A DNA stretch of 30,620 nt from the NCBI GenBank assembly GCA_030590265.1, contig JAUUYW010000001.1, positions 1 through 30,620 of the forward strand. The letters run 5' to 3'. The notes under the pieces are model-generated. The model was not told the origin of the DNA, made no database searches, and saw nothing but the letters and a program-made list of their open reading frames with translations. Position 1 is the first letter of the stretch. Every line of letters starts with the position of its first letter. The DNA comes from Candidatus Krumholzibacteriia bacterium. GTDB taxonomy: Bacteria; Krumholzibacteriota; Krumholzibacteriia; LZORAL124-64-63. Positions 1 through 13,701 of the stretch are shown here, piece after piece. A program made the translations under genes and the position numbers.

Positions 1-900
1 CAACCCGAAACCGGCGGCAAACCCACCTTCCTGACGACTGGTCTCGTAACCGGCCCGCACGAACAGGATCTGGTTGACACCCAACTCGCCGCCAAAACGG
101 AAACTCTCCATGAAATCGGATGGATGATTGAAGTCGGCGCTGGTCAGCAGAGAGAGTTTGCGAGCCAGCTGCCAGGTTTTGGATGCTCCGAAAGAACCCA
201 CAGTGGGAGCCGGGAATCCCTGAAAATCACTGTTGGGAGTGGATCCATCAGGCAAGGCCGGTGGTGTGCCATCAGGCTTCAGATCGCCACCAAAATTGCG
301 AACCGAAAAACCGATGCGCATGTCGCCCAAGCCCACGAAATACAGAATTCCAAGATCAGCCAAAACTGCTTTCGTCTGGAATTCGTCCAGATTTTCCTGG
401 AAATACTTCACCGTCATACCCAAAGAGAAACGGTCGGTCATGGCCCTGGCCAAAGACGCCCCGATAAAGAACTGATTGGCATTGAAATAAGTGCCGGTGC
501 CTTCCTGATGGAATTCATCCGTGCGCAGAATATCACCCGAGCGCAGAGAACCTAGGGTCAGGCCAAACCCGTAGCTCTGTTTGCGGTGATGCCAGCTCAA
601 ATAATCGAGATCGATATCTGCGGCGTAAACACTGTGACTGGCGAAATAATTGGTCCGGCCGGGGGTTCGCATGATACCCGCCGGGTTCCAGAATACGGCA
701 GCACCATCAGTGGCGCAGGATACGTAGGCTTTGCCCATGGCCACCCCGCGGGCACCCACCGGAATGCGCAGGAACTGTCCCGAAGCCGTGCCCACATTTT
801 CTTCACCATAGAGCCTCAAGAGATCCCCGGCTGATGCTGGCCCCACCAAGACCAGGCACAACAACGTCGTCATCACGAATTTCAGGTGGCGGTTTACCAT
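1..900 (-). CDS. PorV/PorQ-family (UPF0164) outer-membrane beta-barrel, 3'-truncated by the window edge
   Basis: Not in the ORF track because the stop lies outside the window. Hand translation from ATG 900 is open to base 1 (300 codons): MVNRHLKFVMTTLLCLVLVGPASAG (signal peptide)...GTASGQFLRIPVGARGVAMGKAY...DGAAVFWNPAG...LFVRAGY, the PorV-type 'GAR..AMG.A...WNPAG' signature. The start overlaps the stop of the upstream TBDR (ATGGTAA). Confidence 0.85.
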   Translation of the reverse strand, partial: MVNRHLKFVMTTLLCLVLVGPASAGDLLRLYGEENVGTASGQFLRIPVGARGVAMGKAYVSCATDGAAVFWNPAGIMRTPGRTNYFASHSVYAADIDLDYLSWHHRKQSYGFGLTLGSLRSGDILRTDEFHQEGTGTYFNANQFFIGASLARAMTDRFSLGMTVKYFQENLDEFQTKAVLADLGILYFVGLGDMRIGFSVRNFGGDLKPDGTPPALPDGSTPNSDFQGFPAPTVGSFGASKTWQLARKLSLLTSADFNHPSDFMESFRFGGELGVNQILFVRAGYETSRQEGGFAAGFGL

Positions 901-3809
901 GAGTAGCTCACCCCCCACAACAGAGTGAAAGGATTTTCAATGTAACTGGGATCGACTACACCCTTGGCATAATCCTCACTGTCGGTGGAGGCATGATAGG
1001 GATTCTCCTGGTTTTCAGGATCATCCCAGGTTTCCACCCAGCGGGGGTTGTAGTCACCGAGTTGGTATCCATCCCCGGTGAAGGGGTTGACCCGGCGATA
1101 ATTGAGATGGTTGAAGAGATTGCGCACTTCCAGGTATATGGTGAATTTGTCCCCTCTGGCAAACTTCCAGTACTTGTTGAAGCGCAGGTTGACTGTGCTC
1201 TTGTAGGGGCCGGTGGCGCTGTTGATTCCACCACGCTGGTAATCCCGTTCGGCAACGTAGGTGTAAGGGGTGTAGCGCTGGCCCGCCTCGGCCCGGGCCA
1301 ACAGGTTAAAGCTCCAGTTCGCGGGCATGCGCCAGCCGAATATTTCGGGTTGGTCATCGTCGAAAACAGAAAAATCAAGGTTGAAACTTACAGTCCAGGG
1401 TTTGTCCCATAGAAGTGGCGTGCGGGTCAGACCACCGATGCTGGAAGTCGGTGTATATGCCTCATCGTAAGCCGCCTGCAAATAGGCTTCATCGGCATTG
1501 CTGTTTGTACCGGTAGTGCTTTGCAATTCCAAACTTCCGGAACCACTCAACCAACGGGTGGTGCGTTTGGTTACGGTCAACTCAATGCCCAGGCTTCTGG
1601 CCGAGTCGCCATTGAAATAACGCACCGGCTCGATGGTCACCGTCCCGGAGTCGTTGGGATCGGGAGTTTCTTCGGCGCCGATATCCACAGATCCCAGGCG
1701 AACGCTTTTGGCGTAGTCGTAGATATCGCGGTTGTAGAAGGTCACGCCCATGCTCCACAACCCGCCGAACTCATGCTGCACACCGGTTTCGTATTCGATG
1801 GTGACCTTGGGATCGAGATTGGGATTACCCAGCAGCTGCACTTCGGTGGCGGCCTGGGTTTCAAGTTGCGGATAAACGTAGGCGAAGCGCGGCCACTGGC
1901 TGAAGTGCCCGTAGTTGAAGAAGAACTTGTCCCGTTCGGTGACGGGAAAGCTCAGGCCCACGCGCGGTGAAAGGCGCATCTTCCAATTTCGGCCAAACAT
2001 TTCGTAGGTGTCATTGTAAAATTCATCGGCCATGTCATGGGTGATGAAAAGGTAATCATCCGGACTGGCCATGACCTTTTCAACTTCCTTGCCCGGCGCC
2101 CACCAGTCGGCCCGCAGGCCGGCGTTGACGATAAGACCACGGTAGTTGAGGGTGTCCTGAAAGTAGGCGGCACCGGTGATGGGATGGGCCAGGAAAATAT
2201 CTTCTTTGACACCCAGCTTGCCACTGGGAGGAGCCCCCAGGTTGGTCTGCAAATCCACCAGCTGCATCTCGGTAAAACTCAGATCAAAACCGGTCTTGAA
2301 TTCGTTGTTGCCCATACCCATGAAAGAGTAGGCACCCTTCAGGGTGTAACTTTCGGAATAGTGGTCGTGCCAGCGATCGGCACTGCCGGGCACCTGACCA
2401 TCGGGTTGGGAAATGAATTCGGCAGGCAGCCCCGGATTCAGGGGATCCCAACCGCTGATGGGCTCGTAAGTTCGGAAATTGTCGTTGCCGTTGACGTTGG
2501 CGTGCATGCGGTTGAAGTTTCGGCCAAAAGTCAGCTCGTACCAGGAATTGTCGTCCAGCACCTGCCGGTAATAAACCTGGGAAAGGATGTTTTCGGTGGT
2601 GAAAACCAGGTACTTGTCCATGTTGTCCATGAACGGACGGGGATAACCCTCGCCCGGCAAATCAAAGCCCTGGCTGATTCCCAACTGCCTGCTCAGATTG
2701 ATGTTCAATTTATGGTTGGGTGTCATGTGCCAGGTCCACTTGGCCAAACCGTTCCAGTTGCTTTTCTGTCGGGGAGACCAGAATTCGTTCTCGTAAACGG
2801 GGGAAGTAAGGGTGCTTTGACGGCTGTAGATAGGCAAATAACCATCCCGGATATCCATGGAACCGCTCAACAGAACGTACTGTTTACCAGGCAAATTCAA
2901 CCCTAGTGCGCGCAACCCTGCACTGATCGGATCAGGACCGCTGATGCTGCCTTTGACGATATCGATATTCTGCGGTTCACTGAAATTCGTAAAATCACGC
3001 CAGCCTCTGTGATCGTTTTTGGGCACCCGATTCCACAAATAGTCCCGTTTGAAACTGACTCGCCCCTCAACCCTGTCATTACCCTCTTTGGTGGTCACAT
3101 TGACCACCCCACTGACAGCCTGGCCATACTCCGCGTTGAAGCCACCGGTGAGCACTTCGATTTCGTTGATGATCGATGGGTCGATCTGGTAGCCGTAACC
3201 ACCACCGGCCAAAGGGTCGCTCACATTCATGCCGTCCACCACGAACATGGTATCGTCGGCCCGGCCACCGCGGATGTGAATCTCGTTGTCCTGCATGGTC
3301 ACACCCGGGGCCATGGCCACCATGTCGACCATGTTGTCCAGCGGCATGGCTTCCATCTGTTTGCTGGAGATGAAGTGGCTGCTGCCGGTTCTCTCCACTT
3401 CGATGAGGGCGCGTTCGGCCGCCACGTCAAAAGGCTCGGCCATGATGGCCTGCACTTCGAGATGGAAATCAATGTTGGCCACTTCACCGGGACCAAGTGT
3501 GACCGTCTCTGTGGCCAGGCCGTAGGAAATATAAGAGGCCCTCACGGTGTAGGTTCCCGGCGGCAAACCACGCATGATGTAGAAGCCATCGGTGAAAGAC
3601 ATGGTGCCGATGTTGGTACCGCTGATGAAGACATTGGTGTAAGGCATGGTCTCGCCGGTCTCATCGTCGAAGATGCGGCCCTTGATAGTGACAGGGGCCA
3701 CCGGAGCGTTGGCATTCATGTTGGATCGTTGGGCTGAAGCGGGCAAAGCAGTAGCCAACAGGAGGCTGAGCAGGATCCAGGTCAGGGTTTTGGCGGTGAA
3801 ATGGGTCAT
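894..3809 (-). CDS. TonB-dependent receptor with N-terminal carboxypeptidase-regulatory-like domain
   Basis: Signal peptide; IKGRIFDDETGETMPYTNV...LPPGTYTVRASYISY (CarboxypepD_reg-like); plug motifs IRGGRAD...VDG and IEVLTGGFNAEYGQAVSGVVNVTTKEG; long beta-barrel; aromatic C-terminus (VSYSW). Confidence 0.93.
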   Translation of the reverse strand: MTHFTAKTLTWILLSLLLATALPASAQRSNMNANAPVAPVTIKGRIFDDETGETMPYTNVFISGTNIGTMSFTDGFYIMRGLPPGTYTVRASYISYGLATETVTLGPGEVANIDFHLEVQAIMAEPFDVAAERALIEVERTGSSHFISSKQMEAMPLDNMVDMVAMAPGVTMQDNEIHIRGGRADDTMFVVDGMNVSDPLAGGGYGYQIDPSIINEIEVLTGGFNAEYGQAVSGVVNVTTKEGNDRVEGRVSFKRDYLWNRVPKNDHRGWRDFTNFSEPQNIDIVKGSISGPDPISAGLRALGLNLPGKQYVLLSGSMDIRDGYLPIYSRQSTLTSPVYENEFWSPRQKSNWNGLAKWTWHMTPNHKLNINLSRQLGISQGFDLPGEGYPRPFMDNMDKYLVFTTENILSQVYYRQVLDDNSWYELTFGRNFNRMHANVNGNDNFRTYEPISGWDPLNPGLPAEFISQPDGQVPGSADRWHDHYSESYTLKGAYSFMGMGNNEFKTGFDLSFTEMQLVDLQTNLGAPPSGKLGVKEDIFLAHPITGAAYFQDTLNYRGLIVNAGLRADWWAPGKEVEKVMASPDDYLFITHDMADEFYNDTYEMFGRNWKMRLSPRVGLSFPVTERDKFFFNYGHFSQWPRFAYVYPQLETQAATEVQLLGNPNLDPKVTIEYETGVQHEFGGLWSMGVTFYNRDIYDYAKSVRLGSVDIGAEETPDPNDSGTVTIEPVRYFNGDSARSLGIELTVTKRTTRWLSGSGSLELQSTTGTNSNADEAYLQAAYDEAYTPTSSIGGLTRTPLLWDKPWTVSFNLDFSVFDDDQPEIFGWRMPANWSFNLLARAEAGQRYTPYTYVAERDYQRGGINSATGPYKSTVNLRFNKYWKFARGDKFTIYLEVRNLFNHLNYRRVNPFTGDGYQLGDYNPRWVETWDDPENQENPYHASTDSEDYAKGVVDPSYIENPFTLLWGVSYSW

Positions 3810-5383
3810 CTGGGGACCACTCCCATTTCATCGGTTAAAATCTGGCCGAGGGCACTGATGACCTGGGCATTGTTGAAATACTCCAACTGCAGGCTGATGC
3901 AAACCGCGCTGGCCAGAGGATCCACGTCGCGGTGAGGGCGGCGGCTGCCAACGACCGGATCAAAGGGTCCGCTTTCGCTGGGGTTGTAACAGAATCGACA
4001 CCATTCCATGCGGTACAGCTCTTCAGTGCCTTCAAGGAGGTCCAAGCCGACTGCGGCACCGAAGCCTATCGCCCCGGTCATGTTGGGCAGATAGCTGCCT
4101 CCTCCCTGGGATTCTGCTGCTCGGTTGTAGAAATTTTGCAGGATTCCCACCGGAAGCCCTGCAGCGGCATTGATACCCAAAACAGAGGAAACAAAAACTG
4201 GTGACGGTCCATCGGATCCGGCTCCGGCCACCATTTTTGAGATCAACATCAGTCGTCCCGGTTCACGATCATCCTGGGGAATGACATATTGATGCAAGAC
4301 ACCATCCCTGGAAGAGGCAATTTGCATGAAGGAGCTGACTGTGCCGCCATCGGTCCAGAGAACCACCTCGAACTGGCGGAGATTTTCCAGCAAGACATAG
4401 GGCTTGTCGGGAAAACCAAAAACGAAATCGTATTGATCCCAGTTGCCCTCTCCAAAAAGGTCATCCAGGAGAGCGGAATAAAGGGCCTTTCCCAGCGACG
4501 ATGAATTGTCCGGAACATAAATCACTGAATTTTTTGGTGCACGCACTTCCCAGGTGTATTGGAATCGGGGATCACCCAGGGCTTCGTCCTGCACTGACAC
4601 CGTGAGTGTCCGCTGACCAGGATTAACATTCGTGACATAGACATCAAACTCATAGGACGAGACACCGGTTTCAAAAGGAACCCTCACCCAGCCCAATTCG
4701 GGGTCGGCGTCTGGATCGTCAATATCCCAGGTTAGGTCTGGGTCGCCACCTTCAACAAGAGTGTAGCGGAAGAAATCATCCAGGGTTTCAACACCATCGA
4801 GGTCGAAGGCAAAGAACCGAAAGTTGCTGGCTCCCCAGTTCCAGTAAAGGGTGTCCACAGGTGCTTCGCCCTCATAAATGATATCCCGCTGCATATTCTG
4901 GATTGGATCAAAATCCGACTGGAAACCCACCACCGGGGGATGGTTTCGCATGGGAAAAAACTGGACAATGGTATCGCTGAAGGCTCCCCGGTTGTCCCGG
5001 CAGGCCAACAGGAATGTGGCGCTGGCTTCACCACTGCTGGGATCGGGCACGAAAGTCATGGTGGTATCAGTAGCTGTGGTGGTATCCCAAGGTGCAGGCA
5101 TATCGCCATCGGTACGAATGGAAACGTAGAACTCTTCCACCCAGCCATCCCGATCGCTTCCACTCCAGTTGAAAGTGCGCATGAAATAACTGGTGGGATT
5201 CAGCTCTTCACCTTCGGGGGGCGGCTCTACAAACAACCGGGCCACCGGTGGTCGGTTCTCCAGTGAATTCGGATCAAAAGGTTCGTTGGCGGCACAACCG
5301 GCCAGCCAGATGGAGAACATGACCAGCGAGAGCATCAGGCCCAACAGCCCCGTCATCAGCGTATTTCGCTTCCAGGATCTCAT
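3806..5383 (-). CDS. Lipoprotein of unknown function (Ig/PKD-like N-terminal part, alpha/beta C-terminal part)
   Basis: Lipobox WLAG|C after a hydrophobic stretch; repeated N.PP starts and W.G.D.DG / DLDG motifs; ATGA overlaps with both neighbours. Confidence 0.8.
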   Translation of the reverse strand: MRSWKRNTLMTGLLGLMLSLVMFSIWLAGCAANEPFDPNSLENRPPVARLFVEPPPEGEELNPTSYFMRTFNWSGSDRDGWVEEFYVSIRTDGDMPAPWDTTTATDTTMTFVPDPSSGEASATFLLACRDNRGAFSDTIVQFFPMRNHPPVVGFQSDFDPIQNMQRDIIYEGEAPVDTLYWNWGASNFRFFAFDLDGVETLDDFFRYTLVEGGDPDLTWDIDDPDADPELGWVRVPFETGVSSYEFDVYVTNVNPGQRTLTVSVQDEALGDPRFQYTWEVRAPKNSVIYVPDNSSSLGKALYSALLDDLFGEGNWDQYDFVFGFPDKPYVLLENLRQFEVVLWTDGGTVSSFMQIASSRDGVLHQYVIPQDDREPGRLMLISKMVAGAGSDGPSPVFVSSVLGINAAAGLPVGILQNFYNRAAESQGGGSYLPNMTGAIGFGAAVGLDLLEGTEELYRMEWCRFCYNPSESGPFDPVVGSRRPHRDVDPLASAVCISLQLEYFNNAQVISALGQILTDEMGVVPR

Positions 5384-7377
5384 TTGATGATCACCAGCTT
5401 TCCGCGCTGCACTTCACCGGTTTCCAGATCGGTTACCGCAAAGATGTAAAGGCCGGTGGCGATGGCACGACCGGCATCAGACAAAGTATTCCAGGACGCC
5501 ATGCCCAGGGCCGGGTCGTTGTGATCAATGGTTTTAACCACCTCGCCCATGAGGGTGAAAACCTGGATCTTGCAACGAACAGGCAAACCGGTGAACCAGA
5601 TTTTTCGACCCAATTCCTGTTCACCTATGCCGGAATCGAAGAGTCCGGCCGTACGGTAGGGATTGGGAAAAACACCCACGCCCTTTCCTGAACCGGCTGC
5701 TGCAGGACCCGGCCCGGGAAAGACCAGCAGACCGTTCTCATAAAAACCGCTCTGGAATTCCGGCAATTGCTGCAATTCGTTGGGAGCGGTGAAAGACACC
5801 ACGGAATACCAGTAAGGGAAACCGTCCAGTAGATTGGTGTCCACAAATTCGCGGTGGCCATCATCGTTGAGGGGCGGCAATCCGGTGTCGTATCCACGCC
5901 CGTCGACGATGTCGTATTGGGCCACCATTTCGGCTATGTCGTAGGGATCTCCCGTGAAAGAATTTCCTTGGTACCGATAAATCCGGTAACCCTGAAAATC
6001 TTCCTGAGCCGTGGCAGTGCTGATGTGGTGCTCCGGAGAGCGCAATGGACTGTCGTTGGGCAATTCGTTGCCGCCGGCATCCAGACTGTCGCCCGGAGCC
6101 CAACTTAATATCACAGTGTCTTCAGAAAAACGGGTTTCCAGAATTGGCGAAGGAGGACCGCCGGGAATGGAAAAACCATCCTCGTAGGCAGCCTGGGCAA
6201 TTTTGCTGTTGTCCAGAAGACTGAGGGAATCGGCACCTGCAACCACGGCAAAGGTGATGCTGATGGTGTCGGCCGGGGCAAGGCTGGGAAAAGGGCCGGT
6301 GGAAATGATGCTCACCCAATTGGAGGCAATGGAGTAATTGGCCTCCTGGGTTTCTCCCACATCAAAATCACGGTTGCTCATGATTTGGTATTTACCGGGC
6401 ACGAGCTCGTCCGGATTGTCAGGATCATAGTACCAGTCGTCTCCCTGGGGAACGTGGCGAAAACCCCAGGCGTTGTACGATACGGGAGATTGTCCTGGTT
6501 CGGGTTGGGCGTTTTCGCTGGTGCCCAGGAGACGGTAGCCGATCCAGCTGGTGGCCAGGCCTTCTTCACCGTCATCATCGTGTTCGTAGGCCATCCAGAT
6601 TCCGGGGTCACCATCGGGAGTATGGGACGGATCCACAAAACCCTGGGCTCCCCAGGCTCCATTCATGTCGTCGTAATAATTCCAGCCAATGGGAGCATTC
6701 GGATCATAGGGATTCGTTTGCTCGGTGTTGCCCACGGTGGTGTCCATCCAAAGCCCCAAATAAAGGTCCTGCAATACCCATTCGCTGATTTTGATGATGC
6801 GGTAGTTCAGAATGACAAAATCATCGGCATAGGGATTGCTCCAGGCCAGGGCCCGCAAATTCACCTTGATGCCCAAAGGCTCGTGACCACCACTTTCAGG
6901 ATTGGCGTAATCGTTGAAATTGCTCTCGATGTGCTGGGTGGAAAGAGCGTCGAGGCTGAAATTATCTGCGTTTTGTCGGTTGGAAATAACCCGAACAGCG
7001 TCTTCCTGACATAATCCAATAAGATCAAACTCCCTGATCTCATCTCCTTCGCCCTGGCCATTGGCATCCTGGCTACCGGTTGAAACGCGAACTTGTCCGT
7101 CGGCAAGCACCGCGCCGACCCACAGGCCGCCACTGTAGACATGTTCAACATTGCTGTTCAGGGGATATTCACCGGAAGGGTTGCGATTGTCAAATGAGGT
7201 GCCGAGGTAACCCAGGTTTGTACCCGTCAATCCGACCAAACCAACATTGGTGTAGATGTGGGTGACAGCAGGCGGCTGCTGGCATTCTTCGTCACCAAAA
7301 GTTTGGCCGGTCCAGCTGGCGATCAGCAATGCGACCAGGAACAGAAGAGCTGCCTGGTTGGGTTTCCACATTTTCAA
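5380..7377 (-). CDS. Secreted protein with Fn3-like domain and T9SS type-A-like C-terminal sorting domain
   Basis: Signal peptide; Fn3-like VILSW...FQGYRIYR...YWYSVVSF; C-terminus VFPNPY...IQVFTLMGEVVKTI...WN...IATGLYIFAV...GKLVIIK. Start is TTG 7377 or ATG 7371. Confidence 0.85.
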   Translation of the reverse strand: MKMWKPNQAALLFLVALLIASWTGQTFGDEECQQPPAVTHIYTNVGLVGLTGTNLGYLGTSFDNRNPSGEYPLNSNVEHVYSGGLWVGAVLADGQVRVSTGSQDANGQGEGDEIREFDLIGLCQEDAVRVISNRQNADNFSLDALSTQHIESNFNDYANPESGGHEPLGIKVNLRALAWSNPYADDFVILNYRIIKISEWVLQDLYLGLWMDTTVGNTEQTNPYDPNAPIGWNYYDDMNGAWGAQGFVDPSHTPDGDPGIWMAYEHDDDGEEGLATSWIGYRLLGTSENAQPEPGQSPVSYNAWGFRHVPQGDDWYYDPDNPDELVPGKYQIMSNRDFDVGETQEANYSIASNWVSIISTGPFPSLAPADTISITFAVVAGADSLSLLDNSKIAQAAYEDGFSIPGGPPSPILETRFSEDTVILSWAPGDSLDAGGNELPNDSPLRSPEHHISTATAQEDFQGYRIYRYQGNSFTGDPYDIAEMVAQYDIVDGRGYDTGLPPLNDDGHREFVDTNLLDGFPYWYSVVSFTAPNELQQLPEFQSGFYENGLLVFPGPGPAAAGSGKGVGVFPNPYRTAGLFDSGIGEQELGRKIWFTGLPVRCKIQVFTLMGEVVKTIDHNDPALGMASWNTLSDAGRAIATGLYIFAVTDLETGEVQRGKLVIIK

Positions 7378-9836: not shown

Positions 9837-11516
9837 TTATCGGTTGTACCCGGTTGGATGCCGCTCATGCCAATCCGTCGCATCCTGGTACACCTTGGCC
9901 ACCTGCAACACCGTGGCCTCGTCATACAATTCACCCACAAAACTTATTGAAAATGGCTTGTTCTCTTCCAGAAAACCCGAAGGCAAAACAACCTGGGGAT
10001 GGCCCGTCAAGTTGGTGATCATCAGGCTGGGACCTGCCAATGAAGGTGTCACATAAACATCCACCGATTCAAAAACCTGCTTCATCATGGCCTGCAACCG
10101 GACCCGGGCGCGGTTGGCCTGAATGTACTCCACGGCTGGAATGAACTGCGCGCTGCGAAAAATATCGGGCCAATCGTTGGGGCGCTGGCGAACCAGCAAA
10201 TCATCCCGGTTGCTGAGGGTCAGTTCCTGGAAAGCCGCACCTGCTTCTGCGGTGAGAATGATGATCAGATCCCAGGGATTGGGAACTCCAAAATCATCCA
10301 GAGGGAATTCGAGGGGTACCAGCTGGGCTCCTGCCTTACGCAGAACATCCAAAGCCTGATCATCCAGTTCGCTCCCACGGTGTTCTGATTCAAAAATACT
10401 TTTCAGATAACCGATGCGCAGACCATTCAACCCTTCATCCGCTGAGAAATTGAATGGCCGGTCTACAGTGGTGGGATCCTCAGGATCAACACCCCGAATG
10501 ACCTCAAAAACCAGGGCACAATCTTCAACGTTGCGAGTGATGGGCCCGATTTTGTCCATACTCCAGCTCAGGGCCATGGCGCCGTGTCGACTGACTCTGC
10601 CGAAGCTCGGGCGCAAGCCCGTAACCCCACAACGTGTGCTGGGTGAAACGATGCTGCCAAGAGTTTCGGTGCCCAGAGCAAAAGGAACCAAACCGGCTGC
10701 CACTGATGAAGCCGAGCCGGCAGATGAACCACTGCTGCCTTCCTCAAGATTCCAGGGATTGCGGGTTTGACCACCGAACCAGACATCGTCCATGGCCAGG
10801 GCGCCAAGGGTAAGTTTGGCCACCAGCACGGCGCCGGCAGCATCGAGCTTTTTGATGACCGTGGCTGTTTCGTCAAGCACTTGATCTTTGTAGGGAGTAG
10901 CTCCCCAGGTGGTCGGATAGCCTTCCACGGCCAGCAGATCTTTGGCTCCAAAGGGAATGCCGTGCAAAGGTCCCAGGTACTGGCCCGAGTCAAGCATCTC
11001 GTCCAGCTTGCGGGCACGATTGAGAGCCCGGTCTGTGGTCAGGGAAATCACACATTCCAGTTTGGGTCCGTATTGTTCCAGGCGGTTCAGGCTGAGTTGC
11101 ACAAGTTCGGTGCAACTGACCTGTCTGGTGCGGATCAAGTATCCCAACTCATGAACTGAATAAAATGCCAAGTCGTTCAAGATATTTGGGCGTTGGACCA
11201 TGGGATCAGGAGAAAATCGGGGTCCGATATCCTCAATATATGGGGCAGGATTAGCAATTTCAGGGTCAAAGCGAAGCGCCGGTCTTTCAGGATTATCCAA
11301 TTCCATGGCCCTCAAGGCCTGGTAGTTGTGCTGCTGGTCTTCCAGAGATGGTCGCATCATCTGTCGCTCGCTGGAAGTCATTTCCAGGTCCAAAAGAACC
11401 TCGGCAGAAGCAATGGCATTTTCCGAAGGACCAGTTGCTTCATGGTCAATTTTTTCGCCGCACCCAGTGAGCAGAAGTGCAGAAAGCAACAGAATGATTA
11501 CAGGACTGGATTTCAT
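9837..11516 (-). CDS. Amidase-signature family enzyme, lipoprotein
   Basis: LHGIPFGAKDL, TRNPWN...GSSGSSAGS, LGTETLGSIVSPSTRCG (Ser-cisSer-Lys triad region); lipobox LLTG|C. Confidence 0.9.
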   Translation of the reverse strand: MKSSPVIILLLSALLLTGCGEKIDHEATGPSENAIASAEVLLDLEMTSSERQMMRPSLEDQQHNYQALRAMELDNPERPALRFDPEIANPAPYIEDIGPRFSPDPMVQRPNILNDLAFYSVHELGYLIRTRQVSCTELVQLSLNRLEQYGPKLECVISLTTDRALNRARKLDEMLDSGQYLGPLHGIPFGAKDLLAVEGYPTTWGATPYKDQVLDETATVIKKLDAAGAVLVAKLTLGALAMDDVWFGGQTRNPWNLEEGSSGSSAGSASSVAAGLVPFALGTETLGSIVSPSTRCGVTGLRPSFGRVSRHGAMALSWSMDKIGPITRNVEDCALVFEVIRGVDPEDPTTVDRPFNFSADEGLNGLRIGYLKSIFESEHRGSELDDQALDVLRKAGAQLVPLEFPLDDFGVPNPWDLIIILTAEAGAAFQELTLSNRDDLLVRQRPNDWPDIFRSAQFIPAVEYIQANRARVRLQAMMKQVFESVDVYVTPSLAGPSLMITNLTGHPQVVLPSGFLEENKPFSISFVGELYDEATVLQVAKVYQDATDWHERHPTGYNR

Positions 11517-12745
11517 GCTACTTCATGCTCCCTCCCACACCGGGGACACCGCACCTTCGGCATCTTGAACCCAGGCGGGATTTTCAAAACAGTGCCGCAC
11601 TCACACTCAATGCGATCATACCCGTCCTTCTTGTAGAAAAAATCATCCACCAGACGCGCCCGACCACGCTTGTCATTGCGCACTCCCGCAGCAGCACCAG
11701 CCTGGTCGTTGCTCACGGCAGCACGCCGGCTGCCTTCACGAGCACCAGCTCCCGACAGTGCGGATTTGGGGATGACTCCCCCGCCACCTTTGACCTCCTG
11801 GTAGCTCTTGTCATAGTCAGCAAAACCGCTGCCGCCCATGGATCGCAGAATGCGCACTCGTTCGTCGATGGGCGGATGGGTGCTGGTGCCGTTGGCTGCC
11901 ATTTTCCCATCCCGAGCCAGAGGGTTGATGATGTACATGGGTGCGGTGGCCTTGTTGGCCGAAGCCAATTTGCTGGGTGCCTGGCTGATTTTTTCCAGAG
12001 CCGAAGCAAGGCCTTCGGGATACCGGGTGAAGGAGGCCGCAGAAGCATCCGCCAGGTATTCCCGCTTGCGCGAAACCGCAAAATAAATGAGCTGGGCCAT
12101 GATCGGAGCCAGAATCATCAGGACGATGGCCACCACCATGATGATGGCCTGGGCACCACCGCCGCCTTCACCTTCACTGCGACGGGAACGCCGACCACCG
12201 CCAAACCACATGCCACGCAATCCCACTTCCGAAAGCAGCACAATGGCACCGGCCAACACCCCGGCAAAGAGCATCAGTTGAATGTCTCGGTTGCGAACGT
12301 GGGCCAGTTCGTGGGCGATGACGCCCTGCAGCTCATCGCGGTTCAGGGATTTCAGCAATCCGCTGGTGACGGCCACCGCTGCATTTTCGGGTTTGCGCCC
12401 CGTGGCAAAAGCGTTGGGAGCAGGATCGTCGATGACATAGATATCCGGCATCTTGCCAAGGCCCGCCGCCAGAGTCATCTCTTCCACCACATTGAACAAA
12501 ACCGGCAGATCGTTCTTTTCGATCTTTTTGGCCTTGGCCATGGTCAGGTAGATGTTGTCACCCTGGAACCAGGCCACCAGAGTCATGATCAGCCAGATCA
12601 CCGAGGCCAGGGCTACCCCATAGAGACCGTAACCAGGACCACCAAAATATTCCGCCAGAAAATAACCCAGCACACCCAGCAGCAAAGCCATGCCGATGAC
12701 CAGGAAAGTGGATTTGCGCCTGTTGGCTGCGATTTGTTCCCACAT
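11513..12745 (-). CDS. htpX: HtpX-like M48 zinc metalloprotease with C-terminal zinc ribbon
   Basis: PNAFATG, HELAH, SRKREYLADA, LASALEKI, THPP; C-terminal CECG...CPRC. Start moved to ATG 12745, directly after the lemA stop. Confidence 0.9.
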   Translation of the reverse strand: MWEQIAANRRKSTFLVIGMALLLGVLGYFLAEYFGGPGYGLYGVALASVIWLIMTLVAWFQGDNIYLTMAKAKKIEKNDLPVLFNVVEEMTLAAGLGKMPDIYVIDDPAPNAFATGRKPENAAVAVTSGLLKSLNRDELQGVIAHELAHVRNRDIQLMLFAGVLAGAIVLLSEVGLRGMWFGGGRRSRRSEGEGGGGAQAIIMVVAIVLMILAPIMAQLIYFAVSRKREYLADASAASFTRYPEGLASALEKISQAPSKLASANKATAPMYIINPLARDGKMAANGTSTHPPIDERVRILRSMGGSGFADYDKSYQEVKGGGGVIPKSALSGAGAREGSRRAAVSNDQAGAAAGVRNDKRGRARLVDDFFYKKDGYDRIECECGTVLKIPPGFKMPKVRCPRCGREHEVA

Positions 12746-12746
12746 A

Positions 12747-13307
12747 TTAGCTGAAGTCCACCTTGGGGGCGGCGCGTTCGGCTTCGTCTTCAATTTCGAA
12801 GAACTTTTCTGCGGTGAAATTGAACATGCCGGCGATGATATTGCCCGGGAACATCTGCACCTTGTTGTTCATGCGCATGACCGTCTCGTTGTAGAATTGA
12901 CGGGAAAAACTGATTTTGTTTTCGGTGCTGGTCAGCTCTTCCTGAAGGGCCAGAAAATTGGTGCTGGCTTTCAGGTCGGGATAGGATTCGGACACGGCAA
13001 ACAGACGGCCGAGGGCACCGGTCAGTCCGGCTTCGGCAGCCATGCGTTGGTCCATGTTACCACCGGCGCCGGAAATGGCGGCACGGGCCTGGGTCACCGC
13101 TTCGAGGGTCTCGCGTTCGTGGTTCATGTAGCCTTTGACCGTCTCCAACAGGTTGGGGATCAGATCAAAACGACGCTTGAGCTGCACATCCACCTGGGCC
13201 CAGGCTTCTTTGACCTGGTTGCGCAGGCCCACCAATCCATTGTAAATACCCATCACCCAAAGAGCGACCGCGACGATCAAACCGAGCAGTACCAGAGCAA
13301 AAATCAT
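12747..13307 (-). CDS. lemA: LemA family protein
   Basis: Single N-terminal TM; [49 protein letters not shown]. Start moved to ATG 13307 (AAGG upstream). Confidence 0.95.
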
Positions 13308-13326
13308 TGTTTTACCTTTCGAATTA

Positions 13327-13701
13327 TCATTCCGGGAACATTCCGCAGAGGAATTCCCTGACTTCGGGCCGCACGTGCCAGCCTTCGTTCTGCAAATCAT
13401 GAGTCAGGTCGGACAGCTCGTTGCCGTCAAACCACAGACCACACCCATCGGGGCATTTGTCTATCATTACCCGACGACCTGGTCCGATATTCACCTTTTC
13501 CATTTTTCGTGGACAAACAGGGCAATGCCGAGGTTTTTCACTGGTTTTGGCTGGCTCCGAGTCAACCGCGTCGCCAGTGCCCAGCAAAAGTTCCAGCTCA
13601 CCACAATCGAACCACACACCTTGGCATTCGGGGCATAGATCGAGTTCAATATCCAGGTATTCCACCACAAAGGTGGGCACCTTGCAGACCGGGCATTTCA
13701 A
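13327..13701 (-). CDS. Tandem zf-TFIIB-type zinc-ribbon protein
   Basis: Two repeats CPVC...[16 protein letters not shown] and CPVC...[16 protein letters not shown]; TTG start with AAGG upstream. Confidence 0.85.

What the first reader, a model, noticed from the sequence alone, without database searches (positions are those of the whole stretch)
1..7377. Four-gene outer-membrane module: T9SS-CTD cargo + lipoprotein + TonB-dependent receptor + its own PorV paralog
Seen: four genes with overlapping start/stop junctions, encoding a protein ending in a type-A-like T9SS CTD, a lipoprotein, a SusC-sized TBDR and a PorV-family barrel. No SusD-like gene is present. Established: in Bacteroidota, PorV is the outer-membrane shuttle that binds type-A CTD cargo leaving the SprA translocon, and SusC-type TBDRs use a SusD lid. 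Inference: a dedicated PorV holds its co-encoded CTD protein at the surface as the substrate-binding or lid partner of the TBDR. That would be a SusD-free uptake complex built from T9SS parts in a non-Bacteroidota lineage. I know of no functional characterisation of this arrangement.
Basis: partly seen in the sequence, partly recalled or inferred. Interest (0 to 1): 0.82.

Follow-up and report, generated by a model that had tools for sequence, protein, structure and literature searches.

The report
TonB receptor operon with PorQ-like anchor
These genes are the first half of a tightly coupled, strongly conserved and undescribed outer-membrane operon in which a TonB-dependent importer is co-encoded with two lipoproteins, a secreted surface protein and that protein's own PorV/PorQ-type anchor barrel, and which in this lineage runs on into nucleoside-salvage genes, pointing to capture and import of nucleic-acid-derived material.

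Summary
Four minus-strand genes with 4-, 4- and 7-nt overlaps encode A (663 aa: beta-supersandwich, Fn3-like domain, divergent T9SS-type C-terminal domain), B (525-aa lipoprotein), C (971-aa CarboxypepD_reg+Plug TonB-dependent receptor) and D (PorV/PorQ-family barrel, cut by the contig end).

The window misses a fifth coupled gene, E (NHL-propeller lipoprotein). In 40 of 47 related loci a dNK, adenosine deaminase and purine nucleoside phosphorylase trio follows E.

Order and overlaps are kept in every Krumholzibacteriota locus whose contig is long enough, and in a Marinimicrobia ortholog. A second module in this genome (receptor, A-like protein, PorV/Q-like barrel, GWxTD protein) repeats the core triad.

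D leans towards PorQ. A's tail best matches the retained tails of PorZ and PorU and is as conserved as the mature protein. A D-tail complex model scored 0.91 against 0.00 for the best control.

The dedicated-anchor idea is well supported. The receptor-to-cargo contact and the lid role were not tested. The whole genome lacks SusD, so "SusD-free" is not special here.

This scan had already noted the same cassette in at least 17 other genomes. I found no paper describing it. I class it as a new variant of known kinds.

The parts
5380..7377 (-). Gene A: secreted 663-aa protein. The database start is the ATG at 7371; the TTG at 7377 is an alternative. It has a signal peptide, an N-terminal beta-supersandwich, an Fn3-like domain and a C-terminal T9SS-type domain.
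   Evidence: ORF and translation. 232 homologs at 55-83% identity, all unnamed. AF2 model with pLDDT 84.8 and pTM 0.80.
6157..7290 (-). A, N-terminal domain (aa 28-405): galactose-mutarotase-like beta-supersandwich. It defines a large uncharacterised family.
   Evidence: VIA-align Z 14-20 to the N-terminal supersandwich of GH15, GH65, GH94 and GH116 enzymes, aldose epimerases and GH174. Foldseek E 4.5e-9. The profile finds 2520 clusters at E<=1e-3. No Pfam hit.
5707..6156 (-). A, Fn3-like middle domain with the conserved DFQGYRIYR motif.
   Evidence: Strand pattern in the model, conserved motif and Fn3-type fold matches.
5383..5679 (-). A, C-terminal domain (aa 565-663): divergent T9SS CTD of the PorZ/PorU type. 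PNPYR and the terminal KLVIIK are invariant.
   Evidence: Weak hits to the tails of PorZ (E 1.5e-4) and PorU (2.8e-4); TIGR04183 14.5 bits against 23. Seven strands in the model. AFDB T9SS-CTD proteins align to 400-663. It is as conserved as the mature protein. It is predicted to bind D.
3806..5383 (-). Gene B: 525-aa lipoprotein (lipobox LAGC, Cys30). It has two Ig/Fn3-like domains and a C-terminal GATase1/ThuA-like alpha/beta domain.
   Evidence: C30 invariant. 172 homologs, all 'hypothetical'. Model pLDDT 88.8. Fold matches Z 12-15 over residues 283-525 and Fn3 pairs. No Pfam or NCBIfam hit.
894..3809 (-). Gene C: 971-aa TonB-dependent receptor with an N-terminal CarboxypepD_reg domain, a plug and a barrel ending in ...SYSW.
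   Evidence: PF13620 57.6 bits and PF07715 53.6 bits. Orthologs also hit PF14905. The plug motifs and the stretch where a TonB box normally sits (VxAERxLIEV) are conserved in 51 sequences. It is the most conserved gene of the set, at 60-90% identity.
1..918 (-). Gene D, cut by the contig end: PorV/PorQ-family 14-strand barrel. The likely start is the ATG at 900. The first ~300 of ~348 aa are present.
   Evidence: NF033709 147.8 bits (cut-off 90), PorQ 85.5, PorV 52.8. Full-length orthologs score 149-167 bits. The profile hits solved PorV 6h3i_F at E 4.7e-8. Contig C101 overlaps the window's first 361 nt at 95.5% identity and carries the missing 3' end.

Best explanation
The four genes are the 5' part of one translationally coupled operon, A-B-C-D-E, that builds an outer-membrane capture-and-import complex.

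Proposed mechanism:
- A crosses the outer membrane through the T9SS.
- A's C-terminal domain is not cleaved. It stays bound to the extracellular face of its co-encoded PorQ-like barrel D, as PorZ stays on PorQ and PorU on PorV. This holds A's supersandwich and Fn3 domains at the surface.
- C is the TonB-energised channel.
- Lipoproteins B and E are further subunits: lid or accessory binding proteins if surface-exposed, periplasmic partners if not.
- In this lineage the operon runs on into dNK, adenosine deaminase and purine nucleoside phosphorylase. The most likely cargo is therefore nucleic-acid-derived (DNA fragments, oligonucleotides or another nucleoside-containing compound). It would be trimmed in the periplasm and salvaged in the cytoplasm.

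Shown: the gene set, the family and fold assignments, the conserved order and overlaps, and the recurrence of the receptor, A-family protein and PorV/Q-like barrel triad.
Predicted by a model: binding of D to A's tail.
Inferred: that A's tail is retained, that D/A sits against C, which protein is the lid, and the substrate. I give the substrate step about 0.35-0.4 on its own.
For: Operon:
- The order A-B-C-D-E is found in every Krumholzibacteriota locus long enough to show it. Junction overlaps are fixed.
- E lies on C101 in this genome.
- B is present once per genome in 79 of 90 and 10 of 10 genomes of two families.
- A Marinimicrobia locus keeps A, a B-like gene, C, D and E: A E 2e-71, C E 6e-144, D E 2e-48.

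Triad recurrence:
- This genome's second module is TBDR, A', PorV/Q-like barrel, GWxTD protein. Contigs C230 and C14 join by 127 nt at 100% identity.
- The same order occurs in an unrelated 4.6-Mb genome.

Anchor:
- D is PorQ-leaning.
- A's tail best matches the tails of PorZ and PorU, which stay uncleaved and bound to PorQ and PorV (PMC10947112 section 3.3; PMC10202324).
- The tail is as conserved as the mature protein, and the predicted interface residues are enriched in conserved columns (p about 0.01-0.02).
- Complex model: ipSAE 0.91 in all three runs against a best control of 0.00 (mark reached by 58 of 80 solved complexes and 2 of 110 mismatched pairs).
- Other pairs of a CTD protein followed by a PorV/Q-like barrel in this genome: C14, C295, and PorU-PorV on C87.

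T9SS present: SprA, PorU and about 120 CTDs.

Substrate:
- dNK, ADA and PNP follow E on the same strand in 40-41 of 47 loci with enough flank. The gap is <=150 nt in 23 of 43.
- A TonB transporter plus lipoprotein for DNA is known in Bacteroidota (DdbCD, PMC12478041).
Against: - No interface between C and A, B, D or E was modelled or observed; the link rests on operon structure.
- The D-tail model may be recalled from solved PorV-substrate structures, and it was not compared with the genome's other PorV/Q paralogs, so it does not show specificity (caveats).
- A's tail fails the TIGR04183 cut-off. Whether it is retained cannot be tested here.
- A's N-domain and B's C-domain resemble carbohydrate-enzyme accessory domains, not nucleic-acid binders.
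- The operon holds no nuclease, and the genome has no DUF5689 (DdbD-like) protein.
- The Marinimicrobia ortholog and the most divergent Krumholzibacteriota loci (L086, L087) lack the nucleoside genes.
- The lineage makes purines de novo: purM is in 151 of 156 genomes.
- The lipoboxes of B and E are not followed by the Bacteroidota surface-export motif (read, motif as given in PMC12478041).
- PorL/M and PorK/N were not clearly found: GldK only weak, GldM search inconclusive.
Confidence: 0.55

Rival explanations
1. Same complex, different cargo. The module captures a glycan or glycoconjugate. A's supersandwich acts as a lectin-like or catalytic sugar-binding domain. The nucleoside genes downstream are merely neighbours or a separate transcription unit.
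For: A's N-domain matches the galactose-mutarotase-like supersandwich of many glycoside hydrolases, phosphorylases and lyases, and the GH174 fucanase (Z 14-20). B's C-domain matches the GATase1/ThuA-like domain of GH42 enzymes (Z about 15). The wider A family keeps an invariant W/E/D set plus H and Y, typical of sugar pockets. The Marinimicrobia ortholog has no nucleoside genes.
Against: No glycoside hydrolase, lyase or sugar-catabolic gene is conserved in or beside the operon. In contrast, dNK-ADA-PNP follow on the same strand in 40 of 47 loci, often within 10 nt of E. A shared fold does not show function.
Confidence: 0.25
2. D is only a private secretion shuttle. It collects A at the SprA translocon. 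A is then processed by PorU and either LPS-anchored or released. The receptor C works with lipoproteins B and/or E as its lid, without D or A in the mature complex.
For: PorV is a shuttle in Bacteroidota (PMC5562754, as cited in PMC9143113). PorU is present. Lipoprotein lids for non-SusC transporters are established (10.1101/2023.03.17.533168; PMC10404256).
Against: A tail that is discarded would not be expected to be as conserved as the mature protein, nor to resemble the retained PorZ and PorU tails best. A generic PorV already exists beside PorU. The triad of receptor, A-family protein and barrel recurs in a second, differently ordered module.
Confidence: 0.2
3. The module is not an importer. 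It is an export or envelope-biogenesis device. One option is an Oar-like TonB-dependent exporter. Another is a complex in which a FadL/PorV-like barrel docks a surface protein onto a large barrel, as BamG does between BamA and BamH in Bacteroidota.
For: It is single-copy and unusually well conserved (C 60-90%, D 55-86%, A 55-83% identity across the family), as expected of housekeeping machinery. There is a precedent for a FadL-type barrel as a fixed subunit linking a big barrel and a surface protein (PMC12578637). The exporter role of Myxococcus Oar is from my own knowledge and was not checked here.
Against: It is absent from seven of nine families of the phylum: 0 of 107 genomes with the B query. 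That argues against an essential envelope role. C has an ordinary conserved plug, and the stretch where a TonB box normally sits is conserved too. It is linked to cytoplasmic salvage enzymes.
Confidence: 0.07

Closest known systems
PorQ-PorZ and PorV-PorU pairs of the Porphyromonas gingivalis T9SS attachment complex
   Same: A FadL/PorV-family 14-strand barrel holds a T9SS-secreted surface protein through that protein's uncleaved C-terminal domain. D scores best on PorQ among the equivalog models, and A's tail scores best on the PorZ and PorU tails. Binding of D to the tail is predicted. Literature: PMC10947112, PMC10202324.
   Different: D reaches neither the PorQ nor the PorV equivalog cut-off. 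A has no PorZ-like propellers and no PorU-like peptidase. The pair is embedded in an operon with a TonB-dependent receptor and two lipoproteins. The host is not a Bacteroidota.
Type-B CTD proteins with their co-encoded PorP/SprF-like barrels (SprB-SprF, PG1035-PorP-PorE)
   Same: The logic of one cargo with one dedicated barrel encoded next to it, used for surface anchorage (PMC9143113).
   Different: The barrel here is of the PorV/PorQ family, not PorP/SprF. The tail is type-A-like or PorZ-like (the CHU_C hit has E 0.11 only). No PorE-like partner is present.
TonB-dependent transporter plus surface-lipoprotein complexes: SusCD/RagAB, BtuB-BtuG, and the alternative lids of Bacteroides
   Same: A large TonB-dependent receptor with an N-terminal CarboxypepD_reg domain is co-encoded with lipoproteins. 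One of them (E) is a beta-propeller, as BtuG is (PMC10404256; 10.1101/2023.03.17.533168).
   Different: There is no SusD. C is not of the SusC family. A T9SS-secreted protein and its anchor barrel are added. Surface exposure of B and E is unproven.
ddbABCDEF DNA-utilisation locus of Bacteroides thetaiotaomicron and the related Riemerella natural-transformation genes
   Same: An outer-membrane TonB transporter with a non-SusD lipoprotein partner, tied to nucleic-acid use. In B. thetaiotaomicron, DNA ends up as deaminated nucleobases (PMC12478041). Here the deaminase, phosphorylase and kinase are encoded directly downstream.
   Different: No nucleases lie in the operon. No DUF5689 (DdbD) is found in the genome. 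The ddb locus as described has no PorV-like barrel or T9SS cargo. Homology of C to DdbC could not be tested.
BamG in the Bacteroidota BAM complex
   Same: A FadL-family barrel sits as a fixed subunit against a large barrel and binds a surface protein by its extracellular loops (PMC12578637). This is the architecture proposed here for C, D and A.
   Different: The function is different (barrel assembly) and no CTD is involved. This is an analogy only.

Membership tests
PorV/PorQ family (NCBIfam NF033709) | Score over the curated family cut-off of 90 bits | tested here: met
   147.8 bits for the truncated window protein. Full-length orthologs score 148.7-167.2 bits.
PorV proper (NF033710 equivalog) | Score over 250 bits | tested here: not met
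   52.8 bits; orthologs 39-59 bits. The genome's PorV-like copy beside PorU scores 106 bits.
PorQ proper (NF033711 equivalog) | Score over 220 bits | tested here: not met
   85.5 bits; orthologs 81-94 bits. It is the best of the equivalog models but far below the cut-off.
PorV/PorQ family | Homology to a solved PorV barrel | tested here: met
   The profile of 32 D orthologs hits F. johnsoniae PorV 6h3i_F at E 4.7e-8 over residues 39-211.
T9SS type-A CTD (TIGR04183 / PF18962) | Sequence score over the cut-off (23 bits) | tested here: not met
   14.5 bits, E 0.026. The paralog on C14 passes with 25.4 bits.
T9SS CTD (any type) | About 80-100 residues at the extreme C-terminus forming a seven-strand Ig-like sandwich | tested here: met
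   Seven strands between residues 566 and 661 of 663. AFDB T9SS-CTD proteins align to 400-663. The fold is as described in PMC11285876.
T9SS CTD (any type) | The host genome encodes a T9SS translocon and sortase | tested here: met
   SprA totals 476 bits on C216. PorU scores 451.7 bits on C87. There are 129 CTD matches. The PorK/N and PorL/M searches were weak or inconclusive.
PorZ-type retained CTD | The tail is not cleaved and stays bound to the barrel | not testable with these tools
   Only indirect evidence: best matches to the PorZ and PorU tails, tail conservation and the predicted complex at ipSAE 0.91 against 0.00.
TonB-dependent receptor | Plug domain plus large barrel, with a conserved stretch where the TonB box normally sits | tested here: met
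   PF07715 53.6 bits (cut-off 23.9). Orthologs hit PF14905. Plug motifs and the VxAERxLIEV stretch are conserved.
SusC/RagA family (TIGR04056) | Score over 368 bits along the whole length | tested here: not met
   56.2 bits, residues 41-264 only.
SusD/RagB | A SusD-family lipoprotein encoded next to the receptor | tested here: not met
   No Pfam hit for B at E<=10. PF07980 finds nothing in the genome.
ddb-type DNA-utilisation locus | A DdbC-type transporter with a DUF5689 (DdbD) partner and secreted nucleases | tested here: not met
   No DUF5689 in the genome. No nuclease family in A-E. Homology of C to DdbC was not testable, because no DdbC sequence was held.

The most novel reading that the evidence does not exclude
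A PorQ/PorZ-style anchoring pair borrowed from the T9SS is a fixed structural subunit of a TonB-dependent importer. This A-B-C-D-E platform is an ancient module shared across phyla of the FCB group (the Bacteroidota-related superphylum), with exchangeable cargo. In Krumholzibacteriota it is a dedicated scavenging system for extracellular DNA or oligonucleotides, co-transcribed with its own cytoplasmic dNK-ADA-PNP salvage route. That would make it a non-Bacteroidota counterpart of the recently found ddb/Riemerella DNA transporters, built from different parts.
Probability: 0.3. Interest if true: 0.85.

Novelty: new variant of a known kind. Interest (0 to 1): 0.72.

Why it matters
- It would show that T9SS anchoring barrels are used not only inside the secretion machine but also to assemble nutrient-uptake complexes.
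- It would show that large TonB-dependent receptors outside Bacteroidota solve the lid and substrate-capture problem with secreted, barrel-anchored proteins instead of SusD.
- The cassette is widespread in uncultured FCB phyla. The A family alone has about 2500 sequence clusters. One characterisation would therefore annotate thousands of 'hypothetical' genes.
- The link to nucleoside salvage gives a concrete, testable substrate hypothesis for environmental DNA turnover by these lineages.

Tried and rejected
- PDB sequence searches for A and B found nothing useful. The TBDR hit only a CarboxypepD_reg domain.
- The Atlas feature search for A's N-domain returned unnamed clusters only.
- The PKD hit on A (aa 21-54, 15 bits against 23.5) is sub-threshold and lies in the signal/linker region, so I dismissed it.
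- AFDB names suggested a gingipain-like domain in B. VIA-align shows a GATase1/ThuA-like fold instead, and B has no invariant Cys/His pair. Rejected.
- Peptide-uptake idea: A homologs at about 40% identity in other families of the phylum sit beside a Peptidase_S9/PD40 protein. Those loci lack B-E, so this says little about the operon.
- Purine-auxotrophy idea (salvage essential, hence the high conservation): rejected, because purM is present in 151 of 156 genomes.
- PorZ ortholog search: none over the cut-off.
- GldK gave only weak SUMF1-type matches. The GldM search found nothing, but its control found nothing either, so it is inconclusive.
- The promoter and terminator scan inside the operon found nothing above the shuffled expectation.
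- Literature searches for Krumholzibacteriota with T9SS, or for PorV-like paralogs with TonB receptors, found no description.
- The Marinimicrobia ortholog was checked for the nucleoside genes. They are absent.
Full report
**What is in the window**

The window is a whole 30.6-kb contig (C84) of a metagenome-assembled genome (MAG) with 585 contigs and 81% completeness. Names attached to homologs place it in Candidatus Krumholzibacteriota.

On the minus strand lie four genes:
- A: 7377/7371-5380, 665/663 aa.
- B: 5383-3806, 525 aa.
- C: 3809-894, 971 aa.
- D: 918/900-1, about 300 aa, running off the contig.

A/B and B/C overlap by 4 nt. C/D overlap by 7 nt (ATGGTGA) if D starts at its first ATG. 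No promoter- or terminator-like site inside exceeds the shuffled expectation. The divergent upstream gene is anthranilate synthase component I.

**Family assignments**

D meets the PorV/PorQ family model NF033709 (147.8 bits, cut-off 90). It is far below the equivalog cut-offs for PorQ (85.5 against 220) and PorV (52.8 against 250). Three full-length orthologs behave the same way, with PorQ scoring above PorV. A profile of 32 orthologs finds solved F. johnsoniae PorV (6h3i_F) at E 4.7e-8.

C has CarboxypepD_reg and Plug domains. Its orthologs also hit OMP_b-brl_3. Its plug motifs are conserved, and so is the stretch between the N-terminal CarboxypepD_reg domain and the plug, where a TonB box normally sits. 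It is not a SusC-family member: TIGR04056 gives 56 bits against 368.

B has an LAGC lipobox with an invariant Cys30 and no family hit.

A has no family hit except weak, concordant matches of its last ~100 residues:
- the tail of PorZ (E 1.5e-4);
- the tail of PorU (E 2.8e-4);
- FlgD_ig;
- TIGR04183 (14.5 bits, cut-off 23);
- CHU_C.

**Structures**

A was modelled with 64 homologs (pLDDT 84.8, pTM 0.80). Its parts are:
- An N-terminal beta-supersandwich (aa ~30-400). It matches the galactose-mutarotase-like N-domains of GH15, GH65, GH94 and GH116 enzymes, aldose epimerases, polysaccharide lyases and GH174 fucanases, at Z 14-20 over 220-280 residues (Foldseek agrees).
- An Fn3-like domain carrying DFQGYRIYR.
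- A seven-strand C-terminal domain that aligns with AFDB 'T9SS C-terminal target domain' proteins.

B (pLDDT 88.8) is two Ig/Fn3-like domains plus a GATase1/ThuA-like alpha/beta domain, of the kind found in GH42 enzymes, ThuA-like proteins and IFT52 (Z 12-15). None of this gives a function by itself.

**The operon is longer than the window**

Three divergent genomes show A-B-C-D followed by a 383-aa NHL-repeat lipoprotein, E, which overlaps D's stop. In this genome E lies on contig C101. That contig overlaps the window's first 361 nt at 95.5% identity, so it is a strain variant or the continuation.

Among 80 loci fetched from species genomes, every one whose contig is long enough has A, B, C, D and E in this order on one strand. 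The exceptions are six loci with a ~40%-identical A paralog. Junction overlaps are almost invariant:

| Junction | Overlap | Loci |
|---|---|---|
| A/B | -4 nt | 68 of 69 |
| B/C | -4 nt | 49 of 49 |
| C/D | -7 to -25 nt | 56 of 56 |
| D/E | -4 nt | most |

Conservation is high for surface proteins:

| Protein | Identity range |
|---|---|
| C | 60-90% |
| D | 55-86% |
| A | 55-83% |
| B, E | 37-79% |

B occurs once per genome in two families of the phylum (79 of 90 and 10 of 10 genomes). It was not found in the other seven families (0 of 107) with this query.

**Beyond the phylum, and a second module**

A profile of A's N-domain finds 2520 sequence clusters at E<=1e-3. They typically show the same architecture of N-domain, Fn3 and tail.

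A Marinimicrobia member sits in an orthologous operon: A, an extra CTD protein, a B-like gene, C, D and E. The matches are A E 2e-71, C E 6e-144, D E 2e-48 and B E 2e-7.

Another member, in a 4.6-Mb genome, lies in the order TBDR, A-like, PorV, GWxTD protein. This genome has the same second module: contigs C230 and C14 join by 127 nt at 100% identity.

So the triad of CarboxypepD_reg-type receptor, A-family T9SS protein and PorV/Q-family barrel recurs in two gene orders and in at least two phyla. This is the strongest evidence that the three work together.

This genome also has a CTD protein followed by a PorV/Q-like barrel on C295, and the canonical PorU-PorV pair on C87. SprA and about 120 type-A CTDs are present.

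**Anchor or shuttle?**

- A's tail is as conserved as the mature protein. The majority fraction is 0.77, against 0.71-0.75 for the other domains. PNPYR and the terminal KLVIIK are invariant.
- It resembles the PorZ and PorU tails most. Those are the two tails known to stay uncleaved on PorQ and PorV (PMC10947112 section 3.3; PMC10202324). The latter review explicitly suggests that cognate PorV-like barrels protect such tails from cleavage.
- A complex model of a complete ortholog pair (D residues 31-354, A residues 565-671, both from locus L021) scored ipSAE 0.91 in all three runs against 0.00 for the best of three controls. That mark was reached by 58 of 80 solved complexes and 2 of 110 mismatched pairs.
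- The predicted interface residues are enriched in conserved columns on both sides (p about 0.01-0.02; the related sequences are not independent).

Caveats: solved PorV-substrate structures exist, so the model may reflect family likeness. Specificity against the other paralogs was not tested, because only one complex job was allowed.

**Substrate clue**

Downstream of E, on the same strand, 40-41 of the 47 loci with at least 3 kb of flank carry a deoxynucleoside kinase and an adenosine deaminase, and 28 also show a PNP_UDP_1 phosphorylase (Pfam assignments; survey). The gap between E and dNK is:
- <=150 nt, often an overlap, in 23 of 43 loci;
- about 0.8 kb, with an ADP-ribosylglycohydrolase gene between, in 8;
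- 1.3-2.3 kb in 12.

In this genome dNK is on C101 below E, and ADA and PNP are on C159.

This ties the outer-membrane module to purine (deoxy)nucleoside salvage. It recalls the ddbABCDEF locus, where a TonB transporter with a non-SusD lipoprotein is needed to turn exogenous DNA into deaminated nucleobases (PMC12478041; I followed this lead from earlier notes of this scan).

Against this reading:
- there is no nuclease in the operon and no DUF5689 in the genome;
- the folds of A and B are of carbohydrate-enzyme accessory types;
- the Marinimicrobia ortholog and loci L086 and L087 lack the nucleoside genes;
- purine synthesis is intact.

I therefore hold the substrate step at about 0.35-0.4.

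**Comparison with what is known**

The parts are known kinds:
- PorQ-PorZ-type anchoring;
- cargo with its own barrel, as in type-B CTD proteins with PorP/SprF (PMC9143113);
- TonB transporters with non-SusD lipoprotein lids (10.1101/2023.03.17.533168; BtuB-BtuG, PMC10404256);
- a FadL-type barrel as a fixed bridge between a large barrel and a surface protein (BamG, PMC12578637).

I found no paper describing their combination in one conserved operon, outside Bacteroidota and linked to nucleoside salvage. The library holds open-access papers only.

The same cassette has been noted by this scan in at least 17 other genomes. One of those notes shares words with this A protein. Those are unchecked AI notes, not independent evidence.

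**Verdict**

I class it as a new variant of known kinds, with interest 0.72.

Noticed in passing
beyond window start: G000 contig C101:1818-2975(-), C101:52-861(-), C159:8-1962: The operon continues off the contig with an NHL-repeat lipoprotein (E), then a deoxynucleoside kinase. Adenosine deaminase and PNP lie on another contig. In 40 of 47 related loci this trio follows E on the same strand.
   Followed up: yes
G000 contigs C230:5894-10411 and C14:1-4376 (L103, L101): A second, paralogous module: TBDR, then an A-like CTD protein (TIGR04183 25.4 bits), then a PorV/PorQ-like barrel, then a GWxTD-domain protein. The two contigs join by 127 nt at 100% identity. The same order is seen in an unrelated 4.6-Mb genome.
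   Followed up: partly
G000 contig C295:950-2701 (L003): Another pair of a CTD protein (tail like that of T9SS-dependent M6-like proteins) followed directly by a PorV/PorQ-family barrel (154.8 bits).
   Followed up: partly
L083, L085, L088, L090, L092 (other families of the phylum): A homologs at about 40% identity lack B-E. They are followed by a small ORF ending in RRKRWRWW and an 860-1000-aa Peptidase_S9/PD40 protein.
   Followed up: partly
D orthologs (alignment A4); C101:2975-3478: D ends in a conserved basic tail (...RKxxDxWRRR) instead of the usual aromatic last residue of outer-membrane barrels. Its role is unknown.
   Followed up: no
window 1-361 versus C101:3123-3479: The two contig ends overlap at only 95.5% identity (16 mismatches in 357 nt). 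This suggests strain heterogeneity in the bin rather than a clean join.
   Followed up: no
window 18447-20429 (+): A second, small (660 aa) TonB-dependent receptor without the CarboxypepD_reg domain.
   Followed up: no
whole genome G000: No SusD_RagB (PF07980) match anywhere in the 81%-complete genome, although it holds several large CarboxypepD_reg-type TonB receptors.
   Followed up: partly
G000 contig C352:979-5937 (L104): An 846-aa lipoprotein whose N-terminus resembles B precedes a 790-aa protein with Sortilin/BNR-type propeller repeats and the genome's best PorZ-tail match (43.6 bits). This may be the lineage's PorZ analogue.
   Followed up: no
window 9837-13400 (-) and L015, L016, L021 and others: The LemA and Peptidase_M48 pair upstream of the operon is also conserved in many relatives.
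   Followed up: no
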